From: Lingula anatina
Taxonomy: Eukaryota; Animalia; Brachiopoda
Length of the DNA: 64,000 nt
NCBI GenBank assembly: GCA_051362555.1
Contig: CM120641.1
Span: 9,982,001-10,046,000, forward strand
Direction of reading: 5' to 3'
Both the position numbers and the translations under genes were made by a program. This document shows, in pieces, positions 4,672 through 56,546 of this stretch. How positions within the stretch are numbered: position 1 is the first letter of the stretch; each line of letters starts with the position of its first letter. Under the pieces are notes generated by a model. That model saw only the letters and a list, made by a program, of their open reading frames with translations, searched no databases and was not told the DNA's origin.

Positions 4672-4755
4672 GTTGCCACGTTTCCTTATCACTTCTTCTC
4701 GCCCGGTCTGTACTTGAGGAACTGGACGGAGAACTGATAAGGGCTTGTGGCTAAC
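4672..4755 (+). ncRNA. mir-184: microRNA mir-184 precursor hairpin (mature 3p arm 4723-4744, star arm from 4684)
   Basis: 4723-4744 reads TGGACGGAGAACTGATAAGGGC, the conserved mature miR-184. The 5' arm CCTTATCACTTCTTCTCGCCCGGT pairs with it, and the basal stem is GCCACG/TGTGGC. There is UGU at the loop start and a CNNC motif (CGTC, 4761) ~17 nt after the 3' end. Confidence 0.97.
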
Positions 4756-9335: not shown

Positions 9336-12300
9336 CTACTTCTTCTTGCCAGTAAGTCCAGCTCCGGCGTTGAATTTGAAGTGAATGATGTCCCCATCTA
9401 GCACAACGTAATCTCGGCCCTTCTGGAGGTACTTTCCTGCAGCCTGAAAATACACTTGTTTTTACGATTTCTTCATATGAAAAAAAAAAAAAAAAAAAAA
9501 AAAAAATCAGGCGGAAAATGATGCATTTTGATAACTTCCTAATCCACAAAACAGGTTGCTTAAAAATTAGACAGGCAGTACAGCAAAAGAGAAAAATGAT
9601 AAAGTTCTCGTTGTGTGAGTTTTTTAAAATGTTTATTTTTTTATTGTTATCATTATTAATTTATTTACTTTTTTCATCTTTTCTTTTGCATCTCCTTTGT
9701 GAATTGATTCAGATAGCCTACCCATGAGAAAATTTAAATCGTAACAGCTTTAGCCCTTTAAGTCACTATAATACAGTGACAAGAAAAGCCAAGCTAATAT
9801 CTCTGGTCTAGACAGAAACCCGTCCTAATTCTATTAATTTCCTATTTCAAATTATTTCTAGCTTTATTGTTGTAATGAAGCAGGGGCCTGTAACATGCCT
9901 TGCTGTATTTTTGAAAAAGACATAAAATGTGCCAATAATGCCAATAAATTGCCAATAGACAATTTTTTTCCAATTTTTCATTTCCTTAACCCAATTACTT
10001 ACATTAAATAGTGTATCCAGACATTTTTTCTGTACACTAAATCCACTTCATCAGTACACTTTAAACCTTTTAATATCCTTTGTTTGACAAATATTTCACA
10101 ATAATTTTTGTTGTCAATAATGAAAAAAGGGTTATATTATATTCCTCTCCTTAATACATGAATAATATGGTAAAATTGTCTAATAATTTCCTTTGCTGTA
10201 TGTTCAAAGCACTATTTTTTACTTTTTTTGATAAATAGCATGCCATTTGTAGCTTGACAAGCAATTTGCAGTGGAGCAGTTAGTAAATGTGTTTGGTCTT
10301 GTAATACTTTCTCCTTTCAAACTATTTAGCCTCAGCACAATAGTTTTCAATTTTTAAAGAAATTTTTTTTTTTTTGAAACAACTGCAAAATATACAATAC
10401 TTCACTCATTATTTGGGTAGATACAGTAAACATGTTTATTGGATGAAAGGAAATTATCTCACAACTGAAACCTCCAAAGCATCCATTCACATAAAAACTT
10501 AATTTTGATATTTATTTAATCATGCCATGCCTTCAGAGAAATATATGCATCCACAATTAGAAAATTCCACTTAAAGAGTTCAGAGGAGGCCAAATTTCAA
10601 AGAATTTTCTTTCCTGTTTTTATTTTTTGCCAAACCATGTCCTGACTACATGAGATTTTCCTTTGAGGTTGGCCCGTTTTAGAAGATGAGGTGTCAAGCA
10701 GGCACACCTGCTGTCGGAGTTACGTGATGTGACACCACTCGTTCATGCCAGGAAAAACAAACGACAGACATTGTGCCTTCCTTACTGTGCAAATTAAACA
10801 ATTTCACATACATTGTAAAGCTAGCAAAAATGTTGAATTTTCAATTTAGTTACTCAAGGTGAAATACACCAGAACTTCAGTTACAGAAATGTATTATTTT
10901 TTTCTTTGATTATTCATCTAAAAACTGAAATAATTCATTATACTGTAACTAACAGAATAAATAGCAACAGACAGAACAAGACTAAAAGTACGGGGATATT
11001 TTGGGAACCTTTTGACATTAATCAAGTAACTTATTGTAACAGTATCACATAATTAAGCACACTAAACCTCAAATTCAAGTACCTCATCAGAGATAAATCC
11101 ATCAGCATATTTAGTGAATCTCATACAAGTATATCATTACTGTTAAAATACATGAAGTTAACTTATCAAGAATATATAACAAGGATGTCCCTAAATAGTA
11201 AAAGAATAGTGCCCTGGCACGCAGCTTATTTTATATCTTGGGTTTACCCTTTCTTCAAGTCTGTGTTAAACAATATGCAATGTATTTCGTAAAATCATCA
11301 ACTAGATTCAGAGCAAGCTGAACCCTACCTTGACTGCATTTTCACTGCCCAATTCCTTGAAATCATCAAATTTCATCACCTCAGCCATGATGAAGCCTTT
11401 TTCAAAGTCAGTGTGAATTTTTCCAGCCGCCTGAGGTGCCTTGGTGCCTTTCTGAAAGCATGAAAATTTCTTAAGATAAGTTTGTGTATTTAATACATCA
11501 TCTCATCACAAATGGAATTTTCGAATATCAATTCATCAATTCAGCATTCTTGACATTTCAGTAACCAGTGATTTCATGTCAATCAAATTGGGAATACACA
11601 ATAAACATTAAAAATTTTTAAGTAATAAGGATGTTAAAATTTAAATAATAATAATAATAATAAAGGTAAAATCAAACAATCATCAAAAAGAGTAACATTT
11701 TTACACAACTAATTCAACAAAAACAGTTTTAAATGAAAAAAAAAAAATTTGCATTACATAATGTGTGCATGCGTGTGTGTGTGTGTGTGTGAGCACACCT
11801 GCGTACACGTCTGCATTAAAAATTTTGCTAGAAAATGAGCTGAGGACTTTACTCAGTCTTCAACTTTTAGAGCTTATAATATTATTTTAATTTTTTTCCA
11901 TTTTATTTTCACACTAAATACAAAAAGAAAATTAAAATAAGAAAAAACATGCCACTGGAATTTCCCAGCAGTTGGAACTGTGCATGTCCAGTAATCATTA
12001 ACTTTAGATTTTTGAAGTGTTAGACAAATATCTGTCACCACAAGACAAGTGTTAACTATGCTATTGCATGCAAGGACCATAAAACTTCTCTTCATATTGA
12101 CAGTGCCTGAAACGCATCTCTTACATAAATTTTAAGTTTTTATTACATGGTGTTTATCACTATTATATAATAACTTGCATGTAACTGACTAAATCTGTGC
12201 ATTAATATTTGTCGTAAATCTGTGCATTAATTATGTTCGTATCCCTCGTTGATAAATGTAGTTTTCACCAAATGGTACCAATGCCCTTGCAAGAGAATTC

Positions 12301-12439
12301 TAGTATGGTAATGGCAAAATAAGGAGTTTCCCTGTAAATTCTGTGGGGGTCATAAATTTCCAATCTTCAAAGTGTTTTCATTTTCTAAAGTGTCTACACA
12401 CAAACAATGCATGCACCCCCCCCAGCCCCCCCCCCCCCC

Positions 12440-12475
<36 letters not shown>

Positions 12476-15400
12476 GAATAAATAAAATAAAATAAAATAC
12501 ACAGAACAATAACTGCTGTATTTTCCTTTCCAGAAAGTGTATTCACTGTATTTTCTAAAACCTAAACAGTATACAAATGCATCAAAGTATACTAACATAA
12601 ACTTTTAAAGGCATGTTTAATAAGAAAAAAAAAAAACCACTGCACTGTACATAATCCACCTTTGCACAGCTACAGTACATTTGCTCGGATTGACTGCAGG
12701 CTTGTGGATGGCTGTGTGATTACAACAACTTCTCAACCCCATTTTAATTTTCAATATTTGTCTGTATGTGCACTTTTAGAGATGCCCAGCAACTGTAGAA
12801 TAACTCCTCAGTGGAAAGGGAGAAATGAAACGTGACTGCTAGAAATTATGTTTTTTTAGGTTGACTGCATATTATCATCACAATGTCAGTTAGAATTTAT
12901 CATGTCGTGGTTTAGCAGGGTTTTTTTTGTGTTTTCTTTTCTCTTTAGAAGAATTACAGAGCAACTGGTTGGAGGTTAGCGAACTGACATACAAGGTAGT
13001 ACAACTGGCCGACCTTTGCTACCCACATAAGTATAATTTCAATAGCACTTGGGAAATGAAATGAGTTTTAAGAGATCAAATTTTTGTGACTTTTCTTTAA
13101 GGTTTTAGAATATTTTCTTCCTACTGTTCATGTTAACTATACCTACCAGTTGGTGAAATTAGGTACCATACACTAAACCTTTTATTTCCTAATAATTTTT
13201 ACTGCCATGTTGAAATGATATGCATACATCTAAGACTCAACGATGATATCTAGCTGAAACATGTTAAACACTTATAATTTGTTTATTTTAATAATCAACA
13301 TGCCTTTCCTGAATTTTTTACAGAAATGCATTCCTTATGGCTAAAGAATTAAAACTAGCTTGGTTGCTACTTTCAAGACGAAATTTTCAATATGGCTGCA
13401 AATTTGTGAGGGGAAAAAACAGCCAGAAGCAACATATATACTGTATTTTTTATTCTAGAGATGTATTCCTTGTTGAAAGAACACATTAGGATAACTGACT
13501 ATACCCTATCAGGATCCAGTTATTAAAAAATCAAAATGGCTGCCAAAACATACAGCATAGGATAAAGAAGAGCTGCAAAATCAGTATATTTCCGGTATTG
13601 TCTAATTAAAATCATATATGAATTAAAATTTTTCTGTCCATTGTGGTATTTTGATCCTAAACTATCTCTATCAGCTTGTTTGACATTCAACTTATGTTTG
13701 GTGAAGTTGTAAGCCCCCTGAGTAGTCCAGTTGCCATTCCCAAGGGTCCCAGTGTTGAACTATGAAATGCTATTTTCTATGAGTAAAAGAATCATAATTT
13801 AGGGTTTAAAAAGTCAACTTAGCCTGGGTTTTCTTTTCAGATGCTACTTTCAGGACATTGAGCACTTTTCAAAATCACAGATGGCCACCAGGTCTTTTTT
13901 AGTTGAACAAACATAATTTACCAGCTTTTTGCCTGCCTTTTCCTTACCATTTTGGTGGCCATTTGTTTTGTTTTTTTTAAATACAATTTGTTGAGATGTA
14001 ACAAACAACTGCAACATGCACCTCTTTACTCAAAAATGCACACGTAACAAACTGTTGGCCATCTTAGATTATGCAAAATGCTCAGTGTCCTGGAAGTAGC
14101 AACTATTTTCTTTTTTCCCATGGTGGCCATATTGAAAAATGCTCAATGCTTCAGAAGTAGCAACTAAGCTAATTTTACTTCTCTAGCTCCAAAGAAGGCA
14201 TTTCTGTAAAAAAAGTTTACAGGACAAATCATTGCAGGGTGCAAAAATTAGGCCTATGAGATTGGCAACTAACTATAAGATTAGAAGATGCAAAAGATAT
14301 TTAATTTTGATCATTAAGCAGAGAAAGGGGTTAGCATGCTTCCAAGGTCAAGATTACAAGTGCAAAATTTACATATCTAAACATAAATACTACTGTTTTG
14401 CGAATGTTTTTTCTGAAGGATCAACCTGACAGCTAAGCTCCTTTGAAGTTGAACTATTGGTCTCATCCTGTCACTTTTCAGCAGCATTTTACTCACCTCT
14501 GTTCAACTTGCCCTTGACCCTCTCTTCTTAATCATTCCAATCTTTCTTATCTCTTGACCCTTACCGTGGTCCCCATCACTCCAAGTCTTTGTCAACAACA
14601 AGAGTTGGGAATAACATGTTGTTGAACAATAAGTTACTTCAAAGTGAATGAAATGTTAGAAAAATTTTGAAATGCTCAAGCCTGGTTCAAAAGTTACCAT
14701 TCTCAGGCCTCCTAGAAATCATCAGTGGACCCACTGCTCAGACGGTGAGTTCAGCAATTCAAATCCAGTACCAAGATAAATGTACATCTGGTGACATATT
14801 TCTGCACAGTTGTGTATACAACTAGCGTAACGTGACCCAAGTGATCGGCCAAAGAACAGAACTCACCTGAATGGTCCATGCTTTAACTTCATCCTCCCCA
14901 GCGGTGAAATAATACATCAACTGCAGTGCACTGTATCCAGTTAGAATTATCTTAGACAACATACTGCAAGCACACCATAATTTGAGAGTGAAAATAGTGA
15001 AAACGATTTCATAACAAAAGTTAAAAAGCTGAATGTTATAAATTGAAACACAAATTGCAATCAGCAGCTATTAGGAATCCAGGCAGAAATATCAGTTCCA
15101 TTAATAATTATGTGACATTTTACACCTCAATGTAATTTTCAAATGTTTAAAAAAAAGTTAATGGACTACTTTGAGCAATTTTTTTTAAATACTGCCAAAG
15201 GTTTAATAGATACTGTTTTAAAATTTGTTGAAACATGGAAGAATTAAAAATGAAACTGACTTTTCAATGGAAACATCAGCTATGGACAAAAAAGGAAAAA
15301 GAAATGCAGAAAAGCATTGAAAGTAAATAATTAAAAGCAGGCACTGCAAAGGCAAGACAGAACAGTAGTGCTATGACTGCTGTTCTAAGATTTGCATGTT

Positions 15401-18400
15401 CTTTATTAAACGTACTTTCCAATTGCAAAAAAAAGCCAATAACATTTTCAGTACTGCCTTAAACAATGGTTTTTGTTTTATTATTCGAAATTAGAACATG
15501 TCAGCGATTGAGCCCAGCACTACCATTGTCAGCGTTAATCAAAGGGGCCAGTTGTAAAAAAAAACTGGACCCTCCTTGACCGCTGGTCTGACCTGTACTG
15601 TCCAGGCTTTCACTTCATCTTCACCAACTGTGAAAAAATAGTGCAGTTGTAGAGCCTTGTATCCAGTCACTATAATCTTGGACAGAGCACTGAAATGTTG
15701 CATAGCAAATGTAAACTGCGGTTCCCGGTTTCATTTGGATTTAAAATTGCTATAGAAAAACAAAAGTCAAGATTAGTATTGGTTCAATCAGTGATGGAAA
15801 TAATCAAAATCTCAACAATAATCTTGACTGAGATAACCCATCCAGTTTCAGATACCTATGTGAAATTATATCAAATGCACACACATATTTTTAATGTTAC
15901 AAAAGGCATACATACACAAAAAATATGTGCTTGTATCAGTTCAACAATACACATTTTCTTTTAACCATTAAGCTTAAATAATCCAATTCGTTATCCCAAA
16001 TGTTTGTGGCACAATATAACATGCTATCAAAAAGCCAGACACATTAAAACAAGAACAATGTCCAGACTTGTAGAACCTGTCACAGGCTGCATTGGCCTAG
16101 GTATTCAAAATGTTAAAAGATTAAGTTTAAGAAGAAAAAGATTAATTACATTATCATAGAATTGCCTGACTGCAGGTAAAAATATATATTTATTATGCAC
16201 CTGGTGATTTTGTTCTCCTTTTCATAAGTCTCTCTCTCTTCTGGTGACATGTCCATTAATTTCAGCTCCAGAGACCCACTGAATGGGATGACACTGGCAC
16301 CAGGGTCATTGGCATCTACCCATTCCTTTATTTTCACCAGCCTAGAAAAAGAGGAGGTATTGTGGATGTCATGTGAACAAAAAAATTTCATAAATTCATG
16401 CTAAACTATGATAGTTATCTGTTAACAAGATGAAACATGATAAATCCTTGGTAAAATTGAAATAGATAGATTGTTTTAAAAATAAATAAATAAATAAATA
16501 AATAAGCAAACAAACAAACAAGCAAACAAACAAACAAAATAATTACATACTACAAAATATAACAAATATTACCTTTTAAAATATTCTATATAATGGATGC
16601 ACTTCTCCAAAATAAATTTTGTCTCTGTATCAATGTTAAAAACTTTCTTACTTTATCATAATCAAAGGCATGAGCATTTTCCAAAACTAAGAATAAAAAG
16701 ATATACTCACATAAAATTTCACTTACACCAGATTAGTGTGTTCACTTACCACTTGTTCTTTTTTCTGATAAAATCTTTTTCTGAGAGATTAATTAGATAA
16801 ATCATTGGCTTCAGGGTTAAGAAGAAGTGCTGGTTTATATATTCAATCTGTAAAAAAAAAAATAAATGAAATAAAATAAAAATATTTTTAAAAAAGTTGA
16901 CGTAGAATCTAGAAGTCACACAAAATAATGTAAATTGCTTAGTTTTATATTTTCCTTTACAAAATAGAAAAGTAATTTATACTAAATGCAAGTAAGATAG
17001 AAGTCAAAATTTTTGAAAATGTAATGCAATTTAATGTCAACTGCCAGTGGTGCCAGAAAAGTTTGTTTTGGGTTGAGTTGGAGGGGGTGGTTGGGAGTGG
17101 TTGGGTGGGTGGGTGGGGGTGTTGTGGGTTTGTGTTCCTGAATTCTTACACCCCATTTCCATAGATTTTTAGATCGATCTATCCCTGTGGGGAGTCTCAC
17201 TAGATTACTGTCAGCTTGGCCAGCTTAAGCATCTGTCCCGCCTACTAAAAGCTGTAAGTGGGTAATTAACCATGGTGCCCGCTCGGCTGACTGCAATTTA
17301 GCGTGAACCCCCAGGGAGTTAGGTCGATCTAAAACTTAATCTTTAGATCGATCTAAATCTCTGGGAAAGCACCCTTAGAGGAGCCAAGTTGTTTTATCGA
17401 AATGCGCTTCTCCTAAACTAACTAAAAATCAATCACCCTTACCTCTTTTGCATCATACACAGCAGCTTTTCTCAAATGCTTCTTTTCTTCTACAAGAAGT
17501 CTTTTTAACTTGCAAAAGAAATCCTAGAATCATAATAATGAGTTGTTGTTCGATATGTGTAATCCAACGAATGTGATAACAAAAGTTTTCATTTATAATG
17601 GCTGCTAAATAATGATTTAATCGAGATATACCAAAGACTTTATATGTCATTGTTTATGTAAGTAGAATGGCACACCTATCCAAAGTTTTAGTACAACTTA
17701 CATATTCAGGTTTCTTCTTCTTGTCATTTCCTCGAACTGCCAATTTTTCTAAAGATTCAAGCTGTTTCAAAATATAGTCTTCATCTTTGAGTCGCAATTC
17801 CTCCATGATGATGTCAAGGTCACGTACAGGGTCCACATCACCTTCCACATGGGTAACATCTTCATCTTCAAACACTCCTGAAAAAAAAGAGAAGTTTTTG
17901 ACAAATCTCACAAACTATTTTTGACAATTTCATTTAGTAAGCATAGTAATGATGGAAATTACTTACCTTAAATAATAGTACAATTTGCACAGTATGTCCA
18001 ATATATTTCCTCATAACACTCTAGCTCTGCTGTATATTCATTAATGATAATGTCTATTACAAAACACTCTGCACTAGGCACGTTTAAAATAAATAATGCA
18101 TCAAAAAGGGACTTTTTGGACTCTGTTAATGAAACAATAATGGGATTACAAAAATGAATCATGCAAGGTGTGTCATTTGACAGCAAATTATGTAGGTACA
18201 TAGTAGAACAGAACAGACAACTCACTGGCCATGTAGAACAGCGCATCGCAAGCACGGATGTGTGAAAGGAAGGCATTTCCAAGACCCTGACCTTCACTTG
18301 CACCCTTCACAAGACCAGCAATATCCACAACATTCAGAAATGCTGGGACCTTACTGAAAATAAATAATCAAACATCAGTGATATATCTGACAACCAGAAA

Positions 18401-19876
18401 AACCAATACTTTTTTAAAGTATTTTTTTGTCTCAAACAAAGAAGGAATTTGCTTTACTTGCTGTGATAAACTTACCTTGCTGGTTTAAAGAAATTGCACA
18501 AGAAATCATATCTTTCATCTGGTACAGGAACCCGACCTAAAATATTTTGCATGAATAAACATTTAACATTGCTTGGTGTCCAGAATCATCTCTTCATAAG
18601 ACCAAATAAAGTTATTGTGAAAACTATAGTTGAAAAAAAAATTATCACCTTCCTCTACCCTTAAAATTATCACATACCAAAATGAATTTTCTCTCTATAT
18701 ATATGTACATTTACAAAATGCAAAATTAACAAAACAAATGACTGGATAATAGTTAATATCTTTATCCATAGACACCTAACTGACTGTTAGATGGAATTTC
18801 TGTAAATGGTCTGTTCATAATGACTTACTTTCATTTGGGTCAATGGTGCAGAATGGAAAATTTTCAGCTGATGCCTGGCTTTTTGTTAAGACATTGAAAA
18901 ATGTTGATTTTCTAAAAGTAAAATAGGAGATTTATCTCATTTTCTGTGACTTAGGTAAACACCAATACATACTGACTCATTATTTCATGTCAGCATATTA
19001 ACATATATACAAATACATTTACATCTAACAGCACTTGTAACATACAAATATATTAGAAAAGTTTTTCAGTCTTATCTAAATAAGATCAACGTGCTATATA
19101 TAACCCCCAGTCTTTTATGTCAAACATCATTTGAATAATTATGCTACTCTGTGTGCAGCAGTAATGCATCATGAATTATGTCAAATTTACAGCTTTTACG
19201 AACTGAAGGCACAGTTAAGAAGGTCTAGTTTACTATCAGAAATATGAAGAAAGTGCACATTAATTTTTTTCTGACTGATTGCGTGATTAATTTATCCTTT
19301 GACATGTGAGTTTATTTGAGTTGTGTTAGAAACTGGTGGTAGTGATTTAAATGCCTTACAGGGAATCTATGTTTACTTCATATGTAACTTTAGGTGAATG
19401 GATAAATTAATGTCAATTTGAAGAATAGTATTGTCTAGACATATCAGGTTTTAACTGGTGGCAAATACCCTTCTAAAGACCCACATTTTTAAATCTGTCT
19501 ATTGCTCTTAAAATTTTTATATATTTCTAATAAGATTGAGTTTTTAGTAGTGTTAATTTTAAATGGTTCGATGAGTGTTTTAGATCCAAATATTGTAGTA
19601 ATTTTAATGATTGTAGTTATATTATCAAATGTAAGGCGCCTTGAGGTAGTATGTGAGGTACCATATAAGAAAGTTCAAACTTATTATTATTATATTAGTG
19701 TTACCCATTAGTCCTCAGCACATTGCAAAAAGTGAAAATGCTAGGTGAAGGAGAAATAAGATAATTTCTTACCCAACATTAGGCAATCCTACAATACCAC
19801 ATTTCAAGTTGGTTCCCACTCTGCCAATGAGGACTGGGGGCTTCTCCTCTGCCTCTCCCTTCTTCTTCGGAGGCAT
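9336..19876 (-). CDS. OLA1: Obg-like ATPase 1 (YchF/OLA1 family), multi-exon
   Basis: Coding exons: 19876-19773 (MPPKKKG...GIVGLPNVG), 18911-18829 ([20 protein letters not shown]), 18536-18476, 18353-18226 ([26 protein letters not shown]), 17877-17702, 17523-17443, 16847-16750, 16341-16201, [15689-15593 or 14963-14867], 11451-11329 ([24 protein letters not shown]), 9443-9336 ([13 protein letters not shown]). All introns are GT-AG with compatible phases. Confidence 0.97.
13380..14280. repeat. degenerate interspersed repeat built of AAAATGGCNGCC-like modules in an OLA1 intron
   Basis: Recurrent CAAAATGGCTGCC/GGTGGCCAT(T/A)TT motifs in both orientations and a duplicated AATGCTCA...GAAGTAGCAACTA unit (14078-14105, 14138-14166). 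Confidence 0.55.
14867..14963 (-). CDS. OLA1: OLA1 mutually exclusive exon, copy b (97 nt)
   Basis: tgcag|T ATG TTG...ATT CAG|gtgagt encodes (S)[32 protein letters not shown]; same length and phases as copy a. Confidence 0.9.
15593..15689 (-). CDS. OLA1: OLA1 mutually exclusive exon, copy a (97 nt)
   Basis: ttcag|T GCT CTG...GTA CAG|gtcaga encodes (S)[32 protein letters not shown]. Confidence 0.9.
17149..17374. mobile_element. fold-back MITE (TAGATCGATCTA family), copy 1
   Basis: Subterminal inverted repeats TTCCATAGATT..TAGATCGATCTA / TAGATCGATCTA..ATCTCTGGGAA, with TTA on both flanks. Homologous to the copies at ~49828 and ~50246. Confidence 0.8.
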
Positions 19877-22698: not shown

Positions 22699-25600
22699 TC
22701 ACTGAAGGGTTTGGATCAGTTCAACCAATTCTACAGCCAGTTCATATTCAGAGTGCCCTTCTGGAAGTTGATTTATAATGTGACCAATCAAAGAAGCTGT
22801 ATCATGCAGAGGTATGTCAACCTGCCGTAGAGTACTCGAGTCCTGCAAGAAACAAAAATTCACACAGTGAAAGAATTAACCAACCAAAGTCATTTAGTCT
22901 AAATATCAGCTTCAATAGCAGAAAAAGTAGTATAAATGATACAAAACTCATATCACAGTTATGGCAAAAATGTTGACCAGTGTTGACAAAATACACTTTA
23001 ATCTTATCTATACTAATAATACCAAGTAAACAAACAGTTTATTTACATATGTCTTGGATTCTATCAAGCTTAACATAACCTGTCTCTAACCTGTGTTTTT
23101 AACCAAGTGGATAATCTTGGTGAAAGTTTTGAAAGTCTCTCAGCACTTGTCTCAGGCTCTCCACCCAATACAAAGTGAGCCAAGCGCTGCCCTGCCACAA
23201 GTAACAGCTGACTACCCATGATCTCATGGTCTGTCACTGTCAATAAGGCCTAGTGAGGAGAATAAAAGAATTTTGCTATTGTTACCATTATCATTGCTAG
23301 GTGGTTATTTCAAAACACACACAGGGAATACAAGAATGATAAAAACTTAAGATGCCTACTATTTTAAAACTAGCAGCTGTTACCTCAGACTGAGAGTTTT
23401 GCTTCCTGTAATTGCATTCTATCAGTAAGTCTATTTCCAATAGATGCAATGGTCATCAAAAACAAGAAAGTGTTACACATTAAATTTTCATCTCTGCTTT
23501 ACACAATACTAATGGATTTAAAAGATATCAAAGAGTGTGAAAGCAAAGTTCATTTGGACATCCAAATAGATTTCTAAAATCACCTCTTCTGCCAGCTTGT
23601 CATACCCACTGGAGTACAGTTCACAAGTGTACTGTCTCCTCAGGACATCAGCATCAATACAGAAGTCATCTGATATTGCACACAGCCGCAAGCACCATGT
23701 TTTGGCACAGGAACACCTCTCAGTGTCTGCAGGATCTGTGATCATCTGGATTGCCTGGCTGATCACACGCACGGCAAACTGACATAAAAAAATGGATGAA
23801 ATCTATTAAACACACGACTAACACAACTTGATGAACAGAAAATTATTTGTACATCAATTTTGATGAACTATTAAAAACAATGCAAAAAGATGTGTGCACC
23901 TGAAGATAAAAGTATTTTGTCCATTTGAAACAATGCTCCCCTGACTCCTCTACTTCCTTGAAAACAGATTCAGACTCGGACTGATAATGATGATGACAAA
24001 GATGCAGTCCATTGAAGGGACAGAAACAGTTTATTTTGGCCAAAAAATGGATTTTCCTGGGGTAAATGATGATTTTCCCATACTTATCAGTGGTTAATGA
24101 ATCCATTCCGACATTCAAAGTTAGTCAGTGTTCTTTTTCGAAAAAGTGTTTTGTAATAATCTTTTTAGGAGGTATAGCCATCTATGAAGGTCCACATGGT
24201 CTGATGGCAAGCACAGATTCCAAAATAATTGTGATAACCCCCGTTTTGCCAGTAAAATGGATTTTATTATATTTCATTGAGTTGTTAACTATGTTTTTAT
24301 TGTGAATTATGAATCTCGTAAGGACAGTTGTTATCCCTTTAAGCACAATATTTAAAGCTATACTAACCTGTTCTCTGTTTCTCAATATTACCATGTCAAC
24401 AGCATCCATTTTGATGTAGGGGTGAGAGGTCAAATCACAGAAGAATGCATTCTGTCCCTGTGGTATATAAAAAATACAGATTACACATGCAACCCAAGCT
24501 CTAAAAAGAAAGCACAAGCAAAGAAGCACAAGTGTTTAATAACATATTCTATTACTTGAATGTCGATCACAAAAATGCAACGGCAGTGGAAAAAAAAGTA
24601 CAAAATCCAGATAATAAATCACTGGCAGCCAGTCAGATGTGTTATTTAAAATACCTTTGTATCAAACAAGGACAGAGGCTTCACAGACTTCATACTGAAG
24701 GTCATCACAGCCTGCATAACAATACAGAGATGTAGGTGGTGCTTTAGTAGCAGGTAGTTTGTGTTGCGCTGGTCAATAGCAAGCTCGGCCAGAGAGCTGC
24801 TACTTCTTCCCACTCCCTGCCACAAGTCCTCCAAATTTAATATTGGCATTTCGCCATAGTCACAGTTTGCCTGAATTGAAGAAAAAAAAAGTCTTAAAGA
24901 TTTAGTATCAGTTAACCATTAACCTGGCACCACAATCAATGTAAGCAGTGATGGCCTGAAATAGAGACAGCAGGTCTCATATTTTAAATAATTAGTTATT
25001 TCACTATAATCACATTCTGAGACAAGGAAGCAACAGATCTATCAGGATTTTAGCAAGCACACAGATATGATAACAGACAAAATATATTTTAATTCCTATA
25101 TAGGAAAAGCATAGACCCGCAAGTTGTGTGTTTTTGTCTTAACATATTTTATTAAGTTGACCATCAAATAATCATTAATTTGGGTCATTTTTCTCTTAAT
25201 TTATTAATCAATAAATACATTCTTATAAATCCAAATCCAGTGTCTTACCTGCATCATAATTTCTATGAAGTCACGGATGTTTGCCAGAAATCCTGTAAGT
25301 GCCAAATCACTTATTCCAACCTCCTAAATAAAAGATAAAGAGAAAAAAAAACTGATGTATGCTTGGTAGACAATGAATCAAAAACCCAAAAAATGATTAA
25401 TTACTTAAATCACATTATTGTGTTAATTTGAAATTTGAACAATTCACAAATTAATAAATTTGCTTGAATAGTATTTAAAATGTAGAAACTACAGACTTAC
25501 TTTTCTACATAATCTCTCCTTTGGGACTTTTCCAACCTAATAAAAATAAATAAATAAATAAACACACACACACAAACACACATTACATATACCTATAGTG

Positions 25601-28600
25601 TTGTTATGAAAAGATTCTGCAGACAAAAATTTACCCTTTGTTAAGTTTTGTGATATAACATAATATTCTGCTGTTCAGCAAATGTCACAGATATAATCAA
25701 CGTAAAAAAATTTATAAGAGAATCTCAGTTTTAAACTATAAATTGTTTCTTATAAATATTCAGCAACATTATTTTTACCTTTTCTATTAGTTTAGCAGCA
25801 GCTTGGAGCTTCTTCAAGAAAAACATCTGCCACATCAAACTGCAAATTCCTAGAAATGATTGCCAAGACAATACATGTCATTCCACATTTCTGTCTCTAT
25901 GAAACAAAAGCCCAACCCTTAATACTACACATCAGAAAAAAATGCTTTTTATCTTGTTGCTTAAAGTATAATGGCCAAATGCACACAAACCCATGGTTTA
26001 AACATCAATTTTCTTTCCCAATTGACAAAACAACCTTTAAAATAACTTACCATGCTGCAACACTCCATTTTGAACAAGTTTTAAAAAGTCCAGGGAATGC
26101 CTTAATTTGGACACAACCTTCAAATAGAAGAGTAGCAATTCACAGTCTCTTAAAAGAGCTAATGTGATTTTTTTCAAGCAACAAAACTTATTTCTCTAGA
26201 GTGTAATGAAAATCAACAAAATTATCATACTCTGTGGCCAATGAAATGAAATGAATTACTCAGTTCCTGGTAATTATGTGCAAAAACATTTGTACAGTAT
26301 CTATTACTGAGGGGTGTTATTTGCAATGAGATTTATCTGACTAGCAAAATTCCCACCTCCGGGTCTTTGTTCCACCTTACTCCATACTCCCAGGCACAGT
26401 TAGCATACAACACATCCTGCTCCAGGCTGTGGGGAAACCTGATATGTAATGAATGTAAGAGATCTGGAAATGAATGACAGAAGTGAAAATATTACTGACA
26501 AATATCGGCTACTCGCAAAGCACAGGCTAAAAGTATTACAGAAAACTGAGTGCCTGGTTCTTTCATTCTTACTATACTATCTGGTAATGTTCAAAGTTTT
26601 CCACTTCAATGTTCTTTATAAAAAAGATGGTTTAAGTTTTAGTTTTGAGCCAAGTATATGTAAATTGAATTAAATTGTAAATTGAATTTTATTTAAAGAA
26701 ATCTGTGCCCACTTCAAAGCTGTATCATACATGCACTAAATCCATGCAAAAACTTTTTTTCACCTATATTTATAAATTTCTATTTCAGCTATTTAATTCA
26801 TTGTAAAGATAATTGATACAAAATAGATAAGACAACTTTTTGTCCCCAATTCCAGACACCCATCTTACCCGTCATATCTTTAATATCAGTTTCTAGATGG
26901 CTGCTGGTTTCAGGAGACTTGGGGCATGTTATGGAAGAATCACTACCATCACTCGATGTTCTGATGACATATGGTAGGAAAGGTTTGGTTCCTATGTCCC
27001 TTGCAGAAGCCCATTTGGCAATGATTTCTGCTATAATTCCTTAAAATTTAGAAACTATGATAGTCAGTCAAAGAGATAAAAGAAAAGTCTTGCAAATTAC
27101 TCCTCTGACTGTATGAAGATATTTTATACATGTAAATTATGGGATATCTGGTCTCCAATATAAGATTTGTTCTCGAAAATCCTGGCATAAATACACGATT
27201 TTACTTATTGGAAGAGGCTCTTTTCTTTTAAATAACAAATGGGTAGTTTCCTTTAAAACATCAACTAACTTTTCAACATAGCCATATTAACTCACCTCTG
27301 CCTCCCTCTAGCACCTTGTTCACAGACACCTCTATATCAGCTGACTTGGTCACATGACTTGTGTCGTCTGCTTCCTTCCACCTAAGCAAGCACTCCAGAA
27401 GAAGTAGATCTTCCAGCTGCTGGACAAGAATGTTCCATTTCTCATTTTCTAATGTAACTGCCTCCCATTCGGACATGTCAGTGTCTTCAGCTGCAGCTTT
27501 TTCATCCTGAGAAATGTTATTTTTGAATCTAACTTAAAGTTGCATATACAGCTTGATAAGTTTACCTAACAAGGGTAAACTTTCTCAAAGATTTTCTTTT
27601 CAAATTAATTGCTTGGAAAATTTTCTTACTGTTCTAGTAATATCTAATTTATTGACAAATGTTGTTGATTAAAAGTAAAGCTCTAAAATACACGTAAGAT
27701 TTCAAATACATCTCAATATTCTAATATCTAAGAAGAACACAAACCTTGTTTTTTCTGTATAAATACATAACACTCAAACTGACACTTCTACAAGTTTGCG
27801 CCAACATAAGTGAAGGACCAATATGGCTGGATGAACTGCATGCCGCACGGATCTTCTCCCACCAGGGGGCAGTGCGATTAGTCTCTGCTACCACCTCTTC
27901 CAGGTCTGAAAAGAATTGAAATTTAAATAAACTGGCATCATATGCAAAAGGAAAGTCATATTTAATGCTTTTTTCTTTATACAATGAAGTTAAAAATCTT
28001 GAAAATTTTGAAAATCTAATATTTATTTATTTATTTTAATCTTTGCCTCTCTCTCTACCTTTTCTCTCTGTGAATGCTTTTACCAAGCCATAGAGCCTCT
28101 CCATACAAGCTGTGGGCTGGAAGGTTTCTGACAACCAGTGGTTCCATAATAGTGACTGATGAGAAAAAAGGGGTTACAAGGTAGTATGCTGGGATTTATT
28201 CAGACTCTTAAATGACATACTGTTATAAAAAGATAATTGTTGATCAATGAGTGGCAACTACAGATGTTTGCTCAGTTTGTCATTACACAAATTAGAAAAT
28301 TCTAAGAAACATAACCTATTGGTATACTTGATACATAACAGAATATGGACATACTTTAGATTTGATTAAAAAAATCAAATTCTTTAGCTTACCATTACTT
28401 GTTCTGGTAAAATTTTGGACATCAATTTAATATCCATAACATCTTCAACTTCACAGTTTCCATTAAGACAGGTCTTAAACAAAAAGGAACCTAAAGAAAA
28501 AATACGGTACTATTCCTAATGTAATTTCCTGGAAATAGTTAATCTTGCTCACAGATCATATCCAAGTAAAATTTCAAAATCTCAAGCTAATGGATTTTCA

Positions 28601-31600
28601 ATGAAATGTATCTATTACATATTTCATATCTTGAGAACATTGAAAAGTATAAAGAGAGTGTAGACCTCCACCAAGGCAGCTCAATTCTCATTACTATTAA
28701 TTTATTAATGAATCAATACCAACATACAATAACTGATTTAAGACCTATCATGAAAAATTAATCAAAATCCGTCATTAACTTTTTGATCCAGGCTGTTAAA
28801 TGACAAACTAGCAAAGGCAAAAACAACCCCCTTGACAGAGGTAATATGTGAAACGCATATTCAACGGGGAATGCAATTACATTATCGTTAATTCACTTTC
28901 TTTATCTAAAGTGTGATGAAATATATCATACATACATACCCAACTTTTGTAACATCTCTGAATTCAAATCATGCCTTATATTGAGAGAGTAGGTCATGTC
29001 AGCCAGTTGGTCTTCTTTAGTTCTGTGAATGTGGCAAGTGAAGCAATTTAGGAACTGTGTCACTGTCAATTCGGAATCAGCAGCAAATTTCACCTTATGC
29101 TCTCTGTTATCTGCCACAAGCTGCTTGTGTTTGTTAAGTAGGTCCAGCACTTCTTCTACCTCTGACTGAGTTAGGGAAAGCAAGGCCTGGAGCGACTAGA
29201 ATGAAGGCAGGAAAATAAATAAGTGAATCAAAAGAGGATACAAGACAAAAAATGTTTATACTGAGAGAATAATGTAGGGAAGATCTCAGAGAAAAAATAA
29301 GACACTGTTCCTGATGTCCGAATTAGCAGACATACTTTTCGTTGCTTATACATCAGTTCCTTTCATAACACTATTGAATTAAAACTTTATATTACCTTTA
29401 CTTCAATATTTATCTTCAAGTATCACATGTGTAAATTAAGCTATTTATTATTAACGTAGAATGTTGGGTCTATTCCTTTTAAGTATTTTCCCAAAAAAAT
29501 TCAGCAACTGTTCAAACCATTTTACATACATTGTTAACAATTAGTAAGCAATTTTTTCACCTGTTGGGAATCCCTTTCTTTCTCAGTGCTTTCCTTTTCT
29601 GTCACTGTCTCCTCTTGTTTGCCAGCATTCAAACTATCCAGCATGCTATATGCATTCAGCAGTTCACTATATCCTTTACAAAACTGAAGCAGCATCTTAC
29701 TGTCAACATCTATTGTAACTGCATCTGAAAAAACAAGGAAAATTCATATAGCAATTAATAATATTTACTTATACATCTTTCAATAACAACCACTGGACTA
29801 AGGCTATGACAAAATTAAATTTTAAAACTTGTATTCTAATAGTATTGCATAAAAACCCTGCATCTCAATGAACTTTTTGTGAGCATATACTTTCCACAGA
29901 TTCATATTATCAGTAACTGATGGTCTGTAGTGTTCCACATGCCTTGTTGTTCTATCTGCTCTACAATGGCTGAGACCACACTGACCAAAACTTTCAATGG
30001 AATGTGTCTGGTGGTCAGAATCTTCTCCAAGCCCTGGGGACGGACATAATATGAGGTTTTGAGAATTAACAAATTTGTTCATCACTAAAGTTGTTTAGTA
30101 TCCTTGTAATTCATCAACCACATTTTACTGTTTAAAATCAACACTGATCTGCACAAGGAAGATGTACTGAAAAAAGTTATTATATGTGCTTTATGTATGT
30201 ATGACAGACATGCTATCTTATCACATATTTCAACAGAAAATGTGTAAGTTTTAAAGAAAAGAAAAGAGAAGAAAAGTAGTCAGTTAATCAATTATTACCT
30301 GTTGCCTTATGCTGGCTATCTTTATGTCATAAAGGAGACTTATAAGCTCTGTTTCTGTGGCTGAAATGTAATGATAATAATCAAGGTTAACTTCACCTAC
30401 GCATAATAAAGGCAATGCCATAGGAACCATATTATATAACAGAATATGAAATATAGCAGTAACAGCAACACAAATGTCTTTTTTTAAATTATTTACATTG
30501 ATAATTATGTGGCAAGGTTTTCTATATGTATCAGCTGGAAGATATTTAATAATGAAATGCATTCAATTATGAATGTTATGTCTTCAGTGCTGATGTGACT
30601 GTGAGTAATGTCTCTAACTTTCACACCTGTGCCATTCTGAACTTGTCTCAGTGCAGCCTTCAACTTTTTTAGCAAATGGACATCTCTTGCCCTTTTGCTA
30701 TTTTTGTCACTAAAAGAAAAAAAACAAACATTAAAAATAGAACATATTTCAGTGAAGATCTCATCGTCAATGTCAAAGGCCATATGTTAAAAAATCTTCC
30801 ATGACACTGTAGGCTTTAAATCTTACTACATGGAAAAAATGTTAACGTACAAAGCAAAGAAAGCACAAGGTATATATACATTATATACATATGCACGTTT
30901 GACACACTGATACAAAATTATTACTTCCATGAACCAAATCTCTGCATATTTGCCACCAGATAACTTGATGACTTAAATAGCACACTCACAGATCTTGAAT
31001 AATGCATGCATGTCTACACACAGATGCATTATCAGCAGTGTAACCCTTACACACAACATAGCTTACCTCAATGCAAGGTGGAATGGGACATCAACTGTGC
31101 TTAAGTTTCCATGTGGATCAAGCAGGTAGCACATAAAATGGTTCTGTTTGACACCCCTGATAGTAACATTGTTCAACCCAAGCATGCCATGTGACTGGTA
31201 TAAGAGCTGACACCATTTGCTGACACTAAAGGCAGCCACTCTAGGGCCTTGTTCTGCTGTCCATACCTAGAAACAATCATGCGTTTATTTAAAAACCATA
31301 AGGAAATCTTTCAAAAGGCGGGAAACTCCCATGGCATTCCTAACCTTGCTATAAAGTGTATTATTGTATCTGCAACTGTTAACTTTATGTACTAAAACAA
31401 TTGTAGACAAACTGTAGACCAGATACTTTCATTTCATGATGTTTTTCTTTGATCAGGCAAACAACAAAAGAAGGCAACCCTTCCCCAACCCAAATAAGAT
31501 TGTCTGTGTAAGTCACAAGAAGTTGCTTCACACTCTCCTGTATATATGCTGCATCTCCATCTGTTCCCCTTCATAAAAACACCATTTACCTCCAAGAGGC

Positions 31601-32593
31601 CCCTCCTGGGTGCATATATCACCAGGAATAACGCCAGTCTGGAGCTCTGCTCATGTGGATCCTCTTTCACCTGGACCCAGCCTACCTGAGCATCACGATA
31701 ACCTGAAATATGACAGACATTCACAACCTTTAAAGAACATGTACCTATTATTTCTCTCCAAAGATCTAAATCTGACCAAATCTGACTCTATTCTGATTTC
31801 ATTCAACATACCCCAGGCCAGTTAATAAAGTCGTAATGAGTTAATAATTTCTCATCACTTTTTGTTCACTTTATCCATTCTATATACCCAATTGCAGAAA
31901 GTGGCACACTATGACTGTCATTAGGTATTGCTATATTTGGGAAAACCGACCCTTCTGTTACCTAGAGCTGTTATTTCTTACATTCTAAATAAAAAAAAAA
32001 TTAATAAATTTTAAAAAACTGACCTTTCCACATCCTGACAGCTCTTCCCTTCAAGATATCAACTAACAAAACTCTTCCATAACTGTCTGTGACAGCAGCC
32101 AGGTTGTTGTTTGGAGAGAGTACAATGCTCTCTCCCTGTCTGTGCTTGTCTGGCAGACCACTCCTACAAACATCAGGATATTGTTGTAAAGATGTTATAA
32201 TAAGTCATCAATACAAAACTCTTTCAGTAATCTTACAAATACAAATTTCTGTGACAGCATAGAGGTATCACTGAAAATTTCCTAAAAATTAAACATAAAA
32301 TATATAAATGTATAGTATATATTATCTTCTTTTATTTAAGAAAATGGAATATGTTAGGCTAAAATCCATGTCGCATTAATATTCAGTTTTTTCGTTGAGT
32401 CAAATGGAATTCCAACCATATAAATCCATATGTATATAAATATATATCAAAAATTAAACATTAAATACATAAATGTATAGTACATATTATTCTCTTTTAT
32501 TTAAGAAAATGGAATATGTTAGGCTAAAATCCATGTCGCATTAATATTCAGTTTTTTCATTGAGTCAAATAGAATTCCAACCATATAGGTCCA

Positions 32594-32637
<44 letters not shown>

Positions 32638-35600
32638 AAATTTATAGATAACAGCTTTTGATAAATAAATTTCAATTCAACAGTGCCTTATAAACAAGGG
32701 CGTGGCTGGTTCTACTTTTGGCTTGTGTCTTTCTTTGTTTTCTTCAGTGTTATGCTTGATACCAAACCAACCACTGGAAAAAATAAAAATTGTTATTATT
32801 GTAACCCATAAAATGTTACTTTCAGGTAAATGAAAAGAAAGGAGTTTTACTCTGCTATGTCAAGGCAGTCTTTATGAGAAATACACAATATATGTAGCAG
32901 AATAATGGAACCAAATCCCATTGTCTTTTCAATACATATTATTTCTAAACACTTGTCATGTAATCGATTCAAACCAATGTCTATTAAGCAAACTATTTTG
33001 CCTGTTGATTTTCAAAAAAATTTCATGTTATCGATAAACAAGCACAATCACAGCTAACAAACTGTACTAAAAGAGACTTACTTTGGTACCTGAAATTAGC
33101 TTTACCAAAATCCCAAATGATTCCCTTACCATACATCATATAGTATAGCAAAAGCAATCTGGTGGTAATCCAAAATTATTTTCCCTTGTCTAATTTAGAT
33201 CTGTTGCGATGAGGCCTGAAAGTTACACCTTACCTTGCAGCACTAAGGAAGGCAGACTTGAGTTTATGTGCTACTGCATATGCCACATCTGATAAAAGTG
33301 GCTGAGCTGAGCCCTAAAAAATTGACAAATCACTATTGGGTAACACAATTCCTGCAACAATTTGAGAACAGCAAATAAAACACATCCATTATAAGAAAAA
33401 CAGCTGAACAAGAACTTCATATTGGACTTTGCTTTAGGTCTTATTTCCTCTCAGTGTGTAGTATTCTTCTGCCCAGGACTCTGCTTCATTAGTTTAATAA
33501 AGACAGAACTACCAATAAATGCAAGTCCAACATAGCAGACTTTACAGTTTACAAATTTACAGAAAGACATATTTACCTCCATAGCATGAAAGAAGCCCAC
33601 AAAGGGCCCAGATCCTGTGGTGGTGTATATGGCAGCTGCAGGGGGAGTGGGTTTGATGGTGGCACTATACCCACCCCACAGAGAGGCTGTCTCCAACTGG
33701 TCAAAGGCACAGGGGGTCACAACACCTAAAACAAGGAGTCTTACTTGGACATACTGTTGAAATGCTGTATTCTAAAGTGTAACGTCAATGCAGATGTACC
33801 CACTTAATTTGAAATCTAAAGATTGATTATACAATCAAACAAGATAATGAATTCTTATGAAGGTAAGATTTTCTATTCATCTGAGAAAAATTGTCATTAA
33901 AGAAAATTGACATACCAAACTCCAAGCCCTTTTGCCTACACCCCCCCCCCCCCCCCCCACACACACACACAACAGCAAATATTGAGCATGAAATATATCT
34001 TTTCAAAATATAACATTTAACTTCATTTTAATGTACTAACCACAGCTCACATGTCCTGTGACAGCATCCTGCTCTTGCAGGCCCCACTTCTTGTAAGCCA
34101 GAGGAGGAGGAGTGATGGTGTCACTACCACTGGCTGCAGCTGATATTTAGAATGAGTTAAATTATGAGAAATATTTGGGAAAAAAAGAAAAATACTTATT
34201 AAAATTCACTTCAATAAATTGGAGCAACTCATTTGAGTTCCACTGGTTAAAATATGCCTAGCTGTAGAAATTTAACAATGTTCTTAATATGAGTAACCCA
34301 TTAATACATAGGTGAATATGGAAAATCCTTATCTGTCATCTAAGGAAAGGGCCACCAAATAAAAATAATACCATAGAACTCTAAAATATCTCATATCTTA
34401 AAACACACCAAACATTTGATACCTCTAGCAACTTGGTTCCTGCATGCTCTCAAAGTCTGGAACAGACTGAAGCCATCTATTGTCACCAGAGACTTAGGAT
34501 ACAGAATGGTCAATTCTTCATGCTATAAAAGAGATCATTGTAGTTCTCCTTAATAGTGGTGTTCGAGAAGTATAAAGGTTAAAGAAAAAGCATTAGCAGT
34601 TTTAAAGTAAGTTGATACATAAAATCTAATCATACATAGAAATTAATTTGATAGAGTAGAAGGATAGGAAGGGTTTGCAAATCAATAGTTTTTTTTTTTT
34701 TTTTTTTGCTTAAGGTGCTAATATATTCTAAAACTGTTCTAAATATAAGTGTTTACATTATTTGTACCTGTTCTGATGCTGCAGCATGTCTTGGTGGTTC
34801 ATATGTTTTACATTTAAATTCCTGCACCATCTTTTCATGAAGCAGTTGTGACAACAAAAGCACTCCAGTCTACAAAAAAGAGAACAATTGCATTACTCAT
34901 TTAGGAACTTTTGTTATCACAGAATATTCTTCCACTCAAAGAAATCACAAAATGACTTCACATAAATAAATCAGTTAAAATATTCAAGAATTTAAGCAGC
35001 ACCCATAAAATCTTTAATATTCACATTTAGTATATATATAGCTACTATATGAAACAATGTCTTGAAAATAAAACTTGCAAATAAACTCCCAAGCTATAAC
35101 ATATATATTTTATTAAATCACATCATCTTTAAAATGCATAGAGAAAGGTATAATTAGATAGCTTTTTTTTAAAAGATATTTTGTTTAGAAATTTCATCAA
35201 TCTTTTAAACAAATCTTACTCAAAACAACATTGGTTGTTATTTGTGAGTGGTGTTGGGTTTGGTGTCCACTGTGTTTCATACCTCAGTATAAAACCTCAC
35301 ATAACCAGAGGTAAAGCCCACTATTACACATGTCCAGTCAGGTCCACCCTGGGTTGATCTGAATAAAGTATATAGCCAAATATCAGTGAAATTCTAACGT
35401 CATTCCTAGCAATTTTCAGACCATATCACACCACAGAAGAATCATAACTACCGACTATAGCAGTGAAATGAGTATGTTTTATCTCAGTAATGTATAACTG
35501 TTCAAAAGAACTGTAAGTGCTGGATAATCTTTTACCTGATAATTTTTGGTATAAAGACAAAGATAATACATGTATAGAATAACCATTATTCTAATATTTC

Positions 35601-45320: not shown

Positions 45321-45354
<34 letters not shown>

Positions 45355-46418
45355 CAGCAATTTTTTTAATTAAGAGTCTGTGACAAAATTAATTGCCAAT
45401 TATATTTAGAAAACAAATGTGACATCTGATGTTTTAAACTAGTTTTAAGCCATTTTCTTGTTGAAAATGATACAGTTTAGATATACTAAGCATTTTGTCA
45501 CAAGGATCATTACAACGTGATATACGCAAGGAGCCTCCATATTTTACAGATTTTGTCTTCTGCATCGGTGGTTTTAATGGCTTACACTGCTTGGACACAG
45601 GGGAGTATTATGATCCCCAAACTGAACAGTGGACCTACATAGCATTCATGTCATGCCCCAGAAGTGGAGTTGGTATGTACATGTATGCTGTATCTCTAAA
45701 TATTTATGACTGACGCCTAACACTGGGTGCTGTTAAGAAAAAATGTGTATCAATGGAATCATCTGCAAAACTGGTGCCGAAAATTGATTCTTACCTTTGA
45801 CAAGCGTTTCTAGTAGTTTAATTTTTTTATTTGAATTAAGCTTTACGTATTGCATTAAAGGAATTGATACATTTTTCTTAATTTAATAAGTTTAAAAGTA
45901 AGTTCATTTATTTAATTTTCCATAGGAATTATTATGTATCACGACTACATCTATGCTGTTGGTGGGTTCAATGGCTTGCAGCGACTTAGCACCGTGGAAA
46001 AATACGATCATATCAGAAACACATGGAAACCTGTTCCTGATTTACATGTCCAGAGAAGTAACTTCGCCATAGAGGTACGTTACCGTCAATCAGCTGCTTT
46101 GGTTATAATTTAGTGCCAATTATATTTACCAACTTCCCTGTTTGCTGTGATGGTTATAACATTTTAAATCTGCTATTGAAACCTGGCGTTTTTTAAAATT
46201 TGAGTGTTTTGTTTGTTGACTTTACTCAAATTATAAGTTTTATTTGAAACTAATATCACAAGATTGTTTCCTTGTAAATCAGGTTATAGACGACATGATT
46301 TACGTAATCGGCGGTTATAACGGAGGAGCAACAATAAAGAAGGTTGAGTGTTATGATGACAATTCTGAAGAATGGTACGTCTATAGCAAACGGTTTAATT
46401 GATATATATATATATTTC

Positions 46419-46486
<68 letters not shown>

Positions 46487-47419: not shown

Positions 47420-47486
47420 GATGACGTCGTGTTGCTGTCATGTACTTCAGTACTGTGACGTCAAATTTGATACACTATGACGTCAC
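47420..47486. promoter_or_regulatory. cluster of CRE (TGACGTCA) elements upstream of KLHL10-like B
   Basis: Perfect palindromic TGACGTCA at 47456-47463 and 47478-47485 and TGACGTCG at 47422-47429, ~110-170 bp upstream of the ATG. Confidence 0.6.
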
Positions 47487-47592
47487 CTCTGCTCCGTGGA
47501 AACTAACTATCAAGGCTATTTCGTATAAAAAATGTTTCGTTAAAAAAAAGAAAATTGAAATTTGCCTGGCATAATTTACGGTTTACTGAGGC

Positions 47593-56491: not shown

Positions 56492-56546
<55 letters not shown>

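What the first reader, a model, noticed from the sequence alone, without database searches (positions are those of the whole stretch)
14726..14878. 5' splice site of OLA1 exon copy b is masked by a downstream antisense element
Seen (pre-mRNA, - strand): the exon end and donor UGGACCAUUCAG|GUGAGUUC are complementary to GAACUCACC-GU-CUGAG-CA-GUG-GGUCCA about 110 nt downstream (+ strand 14726-14752 vs 14859-14878). This includes a perfect 9-bp helix over the U1-binding site and a 6-bp helix inside the exon. Established: RNA pairing controls mutually exclusive splicing in Dscam1, Mhc and 14-3-3zeta of insects. Inference: a structural switch that represses copy b unless it is opened.
Basis: partly seen in the sequence, partly recalled or inferred. 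Interest (0 to 1): 0.72.

Follow-up and report, generated by a model that had tools for sequence, protein, structure and literature searches.

The report
Brachiopod OLA1 switches duplicated exon
The OLA1 ATPase gene of the brachiopod Lingula splices in one or the other of two duplicated exons, in proportions that differ between samples, and the splice signal at the end of each copy is predicted to be hidden in an RNA stem that may help tune this choice.

Summary
The complementarity is there. The window is Lingula anatina OLA1. RNA reads show two 97-nt exon copies used one at a time: copy b made up 84 of 84, 13 of 39 and 23 of 55 a/b junction reads in three runs; no a-b or skip joint was listed. 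The 9-bp helix over donor b forms in 8 of 9 folding windows. The 6-bp exonic helix vanishes once the whole exon is included. The excess over chance is modest: 8 of 300 shuffles match it, and a constitutive donor of this gene also has a perfect 9-bp helix. 'b off unless opened' is not shown: b is the only form in one run. New here: donor a also adjoins a stronger structured domain (z -4.4; inner hairpin z -5.0), and a site 1.85 kb downstream can pair with elements behind either copy. That site is suggestive on raw pairing but not once folding costs count. No orthologous intron was obtained, so conservation and editing are untested. Verdict: real regulated exon pair, not found in my paper searches or this scan's notes; structural control plausible, unproven.

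The parts
9337..19876 (-). OLA1 (Obg-like ATPase 1) gene, 12 coding exons counting both copies
   Evidence: Exon ends located; exon 16201-16341 is 100% identical to the L. anatina protein P0005; human OLA1 structure 2ohf matches at E 3e-193
16201..16341 (-). upstream constitutive exon
   Evidence: joints to both copies in reads
15593..15689 (-). exon copy a, 97 nt, OLA1 residues 292-323; donor CAG|GUCAGA
   Evidence: joints 15689/16201 and 11451/15593 in X15 and X18, none in X12; translation
15530..15585 (-). 22-bp hairpin directly behind donor a; its 3' arm (15556-15540) is the candidate selector a
   Evidence: -25.8 kcal/mol, z -4.98, 0 of 200 shuffles as stable; kept in the 1001-nt fold
15503..15532 (-). 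anti-donor-a element: predicted to pair with the exon a end and donor +1..+5
   Evidence: local fold z -4.38 on a window chosen after the fact; duplex matched by 19 of 300 shuffles; not formed in the 1001-nt fold
15361..15373 (-). alternative partner of the anti-donor-a element (13 bp with 15527-15515)
   Evidence: formed in the 1001-nt fold
14867..14963 (-). exon copy b, 97 nt; donor CAG|GUGAGU
   Evidence: joints 14963/16201 and 11451/14867 in all three RNA runs; translation
14859..14878 (-). exon b end and donor: 5' arms of the 9-bp (14867-14859) and 6-bp (14878-14873) helices
14843..14852 (-). candidate selector b (10 bp with 13014-13005)
14805..14826 (-). small hairpin behind exon b that shares the loop-flanking motif ACAACUG with the hairpin behind exon a
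   Evidence: z -1.2; sequence
14726..14752 (-). anti-donor-b element (the finding)
13000..13018 (-). candidate downstream docking site: 11 + 6 bp with selector a, overlapping 10 bp with selector b
   Evidence: top ungapped helix; 145 and 45 of 6486 shuffles; not an outlier in cofolding scans
11329..11451 (-). downstream constitutive exon
   Evidence: joints from both copies

Best explanation
Lingula OLA1 carries a tandemly duplicated 97-nt exon whose copies are spliced one at a time in sample-dependent proportions, and local RNA stems predicted over both 5' splice sites likely damp their use, so that a regulator, probably a tissue- or stage-specific protein, decides which copy wins. Shown: the duplication, one-at-a-time splicing, the switch between runs, and stop codons if both copies or neither are included. 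Predicted: the helix over donor b and the structured domain at donor a. Inferred: that masking the consensus-like donor b evens its competition with the weaker donor a, and that nonsense-mediated decay removes double-inclusion and skipped products.
For: Joints (b share 84/84, 13/39, 23/55; no a-b or skip joint listed). Both copies in a row give a stop at the fourth codon of b; skipping gives a stop in the next exon. The 9-bp helix forms in 8 of 9 windows and in the 1001-nt fold. Donors b and a have the two strongest downstream duplexes of the 11 OLA1 donors (-25.9 and -24.7; 8 and 19 of 300 shuffles). The domain at donor a is among the most structured of 524 windows across the gene (z -3.7 to -3.9). 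G+C is 0.42-0.52 in the first windows behind each copy against 0.22-0.38 in the rest of the a-b intron. Run X18 differs from the window at 6 listed places in 264 nt of the flanking exons and at none listed in the 194 nt of a and b. By hand 4.4 were expected and P(0) is about 0.01, but 38 of 78 rows were not shown.
Against: No orthologous intron, so no covariation. The b region as a whole is no more stable than shuffles. Two constitutive donors score as well as a and b against their own shuffles (12 and 13 of 300), and one has its own perfect 9-bp helix. The opening energy of donor b (8.4) is below that of the constitutive first donor (8.8); donor a (6.0) is ordinary, 9 of 25 shuffles. Masking of donor a is lost in the 1001-nt fold. 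Several plain intronic places are as structured or more so. RefSeq isoform X3 has Asn for Thr in exon b, which implies a base change that would break one pair of the 6-bp helix unless it is an assembly error or compensated. Copy b is used fully in X12 despite the helix.
Confidence: 0.45

Rival explanations
1. The helices are incidental. The exon pair is an ordinary homologous mutually exclusive pair chosen by splicing proteins and cleaned up by nonsense-mediated decay.
For: p of about 0.03 for one donor picked after the fact among 11 in the gene; 9 of 99 donor-like sites reach p <= 0.05; a constitutive donor has a perfect 9-bp helix; whole-region z near 0; the frameshift alone can explain the lack of double inclusion in poly(A) RNA.
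Against: The two strongest duplexes of 11 fall on the two alternative donors; b is first of 99; the hairpin behind a has z -5.0.
Confidence: 0.33
2. A downstream docking site (13000-13018) pairs with either selector a (15556-15540) or selector b (14852-14843), as in insect 14-3-3 and Mhc. Docking would activate that copy, for b by melting the donor helix.
For: The strongest ungapped helix with its 5' arm in the cluster is a perfect 11 bp, plus 6 bp after a 2-nt bulge. The same site is the top compact partner for both the a-b intron and the first 150 nt behind b; 145 of 6486 local shuffles match the single score and 45 of 6486 the joint score. In cofolding with the site, the donor-b helix is replaced and the anti-b element folds on itself.
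Against: 1 of 33 real control chunks beat each score. Selector a is locked in the 22-bp hairpin, and in cofolding the site bound the anti-a element instead. Net binding is weak (-1.7 and -2.4 kcal/mol) and not an outlier: a about -5 against a best of -11.4 among 3965 windows, b -1 to -8 against -13.3 among 3962.
Confidence: 0.12
3. One reading: the helix keeps copy b off by default and a factor opens it.
For: Robust 9-bp helix; a is the larger share in two of three runs and b reaches 100% in the third; RefSeq models b only as a read-through last exon.
Against: b is a third to two fifths of junction reads even where a leads; donor a has its own structure; intronic depth behind b is low in X12 and X18 and no higher than elsewhere in the intron in X15.
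Confidence: 0.07
4. The anti-b element is itself a shared site that masks either donor b or donor a, so one copy is hidden while the other is free.
For: Duplex energies of -25.9 with donor b and -25.5 with donor a, in interleaved registers.
Against: For donor a it ranks only 52 of 2239 loci, against 10 of 2232 for b; part of the a pairing comes from exon homology; donor a has closer partners and this pairing did not appear in the long fold.
Confidence: 0.03

Closest known systems
Homologous (tandem-duplicated) mutually exclusive exons, e.g. human ATE1 7a/7b (PMC7797038, passages read)
   Same: Two homologous exons of similar length used one at a time; complementary elements overlap splice sites and hinder them
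   Different: ATE1 structures are conserved and proven by compensatory mutation, hide 3' splice sites and compete for one shared element; here the stems are predicted only, cover 5' splice sites, and each copy has its own partner
SMN2 exon 7 TSL2 (PMC1802598, abstract read)
   Same: A stem over the exon end and 5' splice site that would compete with U1
   Different: TSL2 is a short local stem-loop on a weak site of a cassette exon; here the partner is about 110 nt downstream, the site is consensus-like and the exon is one of a duplicated pair
Downstream docking-site/selector systems of insect 14-3-3, Mhc, MRP1 and srp (PMC6071210 parts 1 and 3; PMC4691838 passages)
   Same: Candidate site in the intron downstream of the cluster that can pair with an element behind each copy
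   Different: There the pairing is intron-intron, conserved and activating; the helix of the finding is not of this kind, and the candidate dock here fails the accessibility-aware scan
Oyster alternative oxidase with a duplicated, alternatively spliced exon (PMC5589949, search listing and start of abstract only)
   Same: Lophotrochozoan housekeeping gene with two forms from a duplicated exon
   Different: Other gene; nothing seen on RNA structure

Membership tests
Homologous mutually exclusive exon pair | Two adjacent exons of equal length, same phase and clear homology | tested here: met
   97 nt each, about 70% identical, 25 of 32 residues the same
Homologous mutually exclusive exon pair | Each copy spliced to both flanks; never both, never neither | tested here: met
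   All four expected joints seen; no a-b or skip joint listed, with a listing floor of 3 reads from 2 starts
Homologous mutually exclusive exon pair | Regulated ratio | tested here: met
   b share 84/84, 13/39, 23/55 in three runs of three studies; tissues not known to me
Splice-site-masking stem (TSL2/ATE1 type) | Predicted stable pairing over the splice site | tested here: met
   Donor b paired in 8 of 9 windows; donor a paired locally but not in the long fold
Splice-site-masking stem (TSL2/ATE1 type) | Stronger than chance and than control donors | tested here: inconclusive
   8 of 300 shuffles; first of 99 sites; but constitutive donors score 12 and 13 of 300 and one has a 9-bp helix
Splice-site-masking stem (TSL2/ATE1 type) | Conservation with compensatory changes | not testable with these tools
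   No genome held; contigs of the second organism X11 gave no orthologous piece; the metagenome scan gave 2 OLA1 loci of 117, neither with a second copy in the DNA held
Splice-site-masking stem (TSL2/ATE1 type) | Disruptive and compensatory mutations change and restore splicing | not testable with these tools
   bench experiment
Docking-site/selector system (Dscam1, 14-3-3, Mhc) | One intronic site complementary to an intronic element beside each variable exon | tested here: inconclusive
   Candidate 13000-13018: 45 of 6486 shuffles and 1 of 33 real chunks on the joint score; no outlier in cofolding scans
Docking-site/selector system (Dscam1, 14-3-3, Mhc) | Pairing elements lie in introns, not on the splice site | tested here: not met
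   For the helix of the finding, the 5' arm is the donor and exon end itself
ADAR-edited duplex | A-to-I changes within the helix | tested here: inconclusive
   No difference listed in 14726-14878, but intronic depth was about 0-3 and 38 of 78 rows were not shown
Known structured RNA family (miRNA, snoRNA) | Rfam match | tested here: not met
   Only mir-184 at 4672-4754 at gathering score; nothing over the helices or hairpin up to E 10

The most novel reading that the evidence does not exclude
Both copies of the duplicated exon keep their 5' splice sites folded away in their own stems, and one shared site far downstream unlocks only one of them at a time. This would join splice-site masking and docking-site competition in one switch, in a phylum where my searches found no RNA-pairing control of exon choice.
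Probability: 0.1. Interest if true: 0.72.

Novelty: new member of a known kind. Interest (0 to 1): 0.42.

Why it matters
OLA1/YchF is a universally conserved ribosome-associated ATPase (recalled; the PDB hits span human, plant, yeast and bacteria), and my paper searches found no mutually exclusive exon pair in it. In Lingula the switch can be complete and changes 7 residues where the G domain meets the TGS domain (domain boundary recalled), leaving every invariant residue intact. If the stems are functional, this is a compact two-exon model of structure-guided exon choice outside arthropods and vertebrates, and a test of the idea that exon duplication copies its structural controls (PMC6071210). 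If not, it remains an annotation correction: RefSeq models copy b only as a read-through last exon.

Tried and rejected
Own genome: none held. Orthologous introns: contigs of run X11 gave only short repeat-like pieces. L062 has a single copy within about 1.4 kb upstream and 0.5 kb to the next exon, and L082 is only 620 nt. The single-copy donor of L082 also folds with downstream sequence (-21.4), that of L062 does not (-8.4). Isoform pairs in other species: none differing in this exon among the clusters I opened (13 clusters, at most 15 members listed each). Apparent duplications in P0038, P0039, P0199 and P0203 are identical repeats that look like assembly or model errors. Clustering at 90% hides such isoforms, so this is weak. 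No RNA holder was listed among indexed runs; raw-read runs were laid instead. Steric hindrance between the copies: rejected on length (629-nt intron), though a distant branch point was not tested. A snoRNA or miRNA reading of the elements: no Rfam support. Homology of the two post-exon introns: a global alignment showed none beyond the donor; only a short hairpin motif is shared. Docking site as an outlier in net binding: not supported. A planned BLAST of the elements against the window, a codon comparison and a Fisher test did not run because the script machine was lost. Paper searches with no hit: 'OLA1' + 'mutually exclusive exons'; 'mutually exclusive splicing' + 'RNA pairing' + 'lophotrochozoa'. 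The library lacks most subscription papers, and I opened no supplements. Earlier findings of this scan: none on this gene.

Full report
What the locus is. The finding lies in the OLA1 gene on the - strand (19876 to 9337). The exon at 16201-16341 translates to a stretch 100% identical to Lingula anatina Obg-like ATPase 1, and that protein matches the human structure 2ohf at E 3e-193. Two 97-nt exons, a (15689-15593) and b (14963-14867), are about 70% identical in DNA and differ at 7 of 32 residues. Both keep every column that is invariant in 130 distinct homologous segments.

The exons are mutually exclusive and regulated. Raw RNA reads from three studies were laid on 11200-16450 (about 6, 6 and 25 in 100 of each run were read). 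Junction reads for b were 48 + 36 in X12, 2 + 11 in X15 and 12 + 11 in X18. For a they were 0 + 0, 10 + 16 and 14 + 18. No a-b joint and no skip joint was listed; the listing floor is 3 reads from 2 starts. X12 has no depth at all on exon a. I do not know the tissues. Including both copies puts a stop at the fourth codon of b, and skipping both gives a stop in the next exon, so decay could hide such products (inference). RefSeq has a in isoforms X1 and X2, and b only as a read-through last exon, X3, with Asn for Thr near its end.

The observed helix. The 9-bp helix over donor positions -1 to +8 has probability 0.78-1.0 in 8 of 9 windows at 37 C and 0.14-0.16 in one. The 6-bp exonic helix survives only when most of the exon is left out. 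Whole-region stability is ordinary (z 0.13; z -1.11). With the downstream intron shuffled, 8 of 300 shuffles give as strong a duplex and 2 of 25 as high an opening energy. Of 99 donor-like sites in the window it is the strongest duplex, but 9 of 99 reach p <= 0.05. A perfect 9-bp helix over the GU occurs in three independent cases, one being the constitutive OLA1 donor at 17702. Donor b matches the usual donor consensus CAG|GURAGU (recalled) and donor a does not at +3 and +6, so masking b would make design sense, but that is inference.

Donor a is followed by a 22-bp hairpin (15585-15530; z -4.98, 0 of 200 shuffles). In local folds the exon a end and donor +1..+5 pair with 15532-15503 (z -4.38 on a window chosen after the fact). 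In an even scan of 524 windows across the gene this domain scores z -3.7 to -3.9, but about five other places score as well or better. Donors b and a have the two strongest downstream duplexes of 11 OLA1 donors, yet two constitutive donors do as well against their own shuffles, and the opening energy of a is ordinary. In a 1001-nt fold the b helix and the hairpin stay, while the anti-a element pairs with 15373-15361 instead and donor a is freed from it. G+C is raised behind both copies. In the divergent run X18, 6 differences are listed in 264 nt of the flanking exons and none in the 194 nt of a and b. That hints at extra constraint (by hand, P about 0.01), but 38 of 78 rows were not shown, and the constraint need not be structural.

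A possible docking site. The strongest ungapped helix with its 5' arm in the cluster joins 15556-15546 to 13010-13000 (11 perfect pairs, 6 more after a 2-nt bulge), and an overlapping stretch pairs with 14852-14843 just behind donor b. It is the top compact partner for both. 145 and 45 of 6486 local shuffles reach the single and joint scores, and 1 of 33 real chunks beats each. In cofolding, the site displaces the donor-b helix; with the a domain it binds the anti-a element and not the selector; net binding is only about -2 kcal/mol. In scans that charge for internal structure it is not an outlier among nearly 4000 windows. I keep it as a lead at about 0.12.

Conservation could not be tested. 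No genome is held, X11 gave no orthologous piece, and a metagenome scan gave 2 animal OLA1 loci of 117, with no second copy in the DNA held. No isoform pair differing in this exon turned up in the protein clusters I opened; clustering at 90% makes this weak. Editing could not be judged at the intronic depth available. There is no Rfam family over any element.

Comparison with what is known. It is a member of the homologous mutually exclusive exon class. It would work like SMN2 TSL2 (stem on a 5' splice site competing with U1; PMC1802598, abstract) or ATE1 (competing pairings hinder splice sites; PMC7797038, passages). It is not like Dscam1, Mhc or 14-3-3, where intronic docking and selector sites pair (PMC6071210, parts 1 and 3 of 5; PMC4691838, PMC11802352, PMC10790352 and PMC7404189, passages; PMC6075143 gave only reference-list hits). 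Searches for OLA1 with mutually exclusive exons and for RNA-pairing control in lophotrochozoans found no paper; searches listed none on this exon pair by title or abstract start. The library omits most subscription papers, and no supplements were opened.

Verdict. Observation partly confirmed; interpretation partly supported. The exon switch is real and can be complete. Structural damping of both donors is my best single explanation (0.45), closely followed by chance pairing with protein control and decay (0.33). Interest 0.42; new member of a known kind.

Noticed in passing
   Followed up: partly
window 13314-14270: Several copies of a repeat in both orientations (59 nt 85%, 53 nt 83%) in the intron downstream of exon b; reads from other genomic copies pile up at about 14125-14270, so the differences listed there are not editing evidence.
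   Followed up: partly
window 15750-15775 (- strand): A branch-point-like motif and pyrimidine tract end in an AG 60 nt upstream of the acceptor actually used by exon a; using it would add a stop codon. No joint to it was listed. Possible decoy acceptor.
   Followed up: no
window 14697-14710 (- strand): A 14-nt stretch flanked by AG and GT lies just behind the antisense element, whose core also reads like a branch-point motif (recalled); a possible cryptic micro-exon, with no read support.
   Followed up: partly
window 15530-15585 (- strand): The hairpin behind donor a has the size and shape of a microRNA precursor; no Rfam match, no small-RNA data.
   Followed up: partly
P0238/P0239 and P0106/P0162: Arthropod OLA1 proteins come in forms that differ only at two residues near position 61-62 (ENK versus ESR), which suggests a separate alternative splicing event in OLA1.
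   Followed up: no
window 4672-4754 (+): mir-184 precursor, Rfam RF00657, 72 bits.
   Followed up: no
window about 23000-37000 (-), 43200-50300 (+), 55100-57200 (-): Coding stretches that look like RAB3GAP2, a kelch/BTB (KLHL10-like) gene and BBS9; names recalled from the translations, not tested.
   Followed up: no
P0023 (RefSeq X3): The public gene model treats exon b as a read-through terminal exon; reads show it spliced to the next exon in all three runs, so the full-length b isoform appears to be missing from the members I could read (2 of 3).
   Followed up: yes
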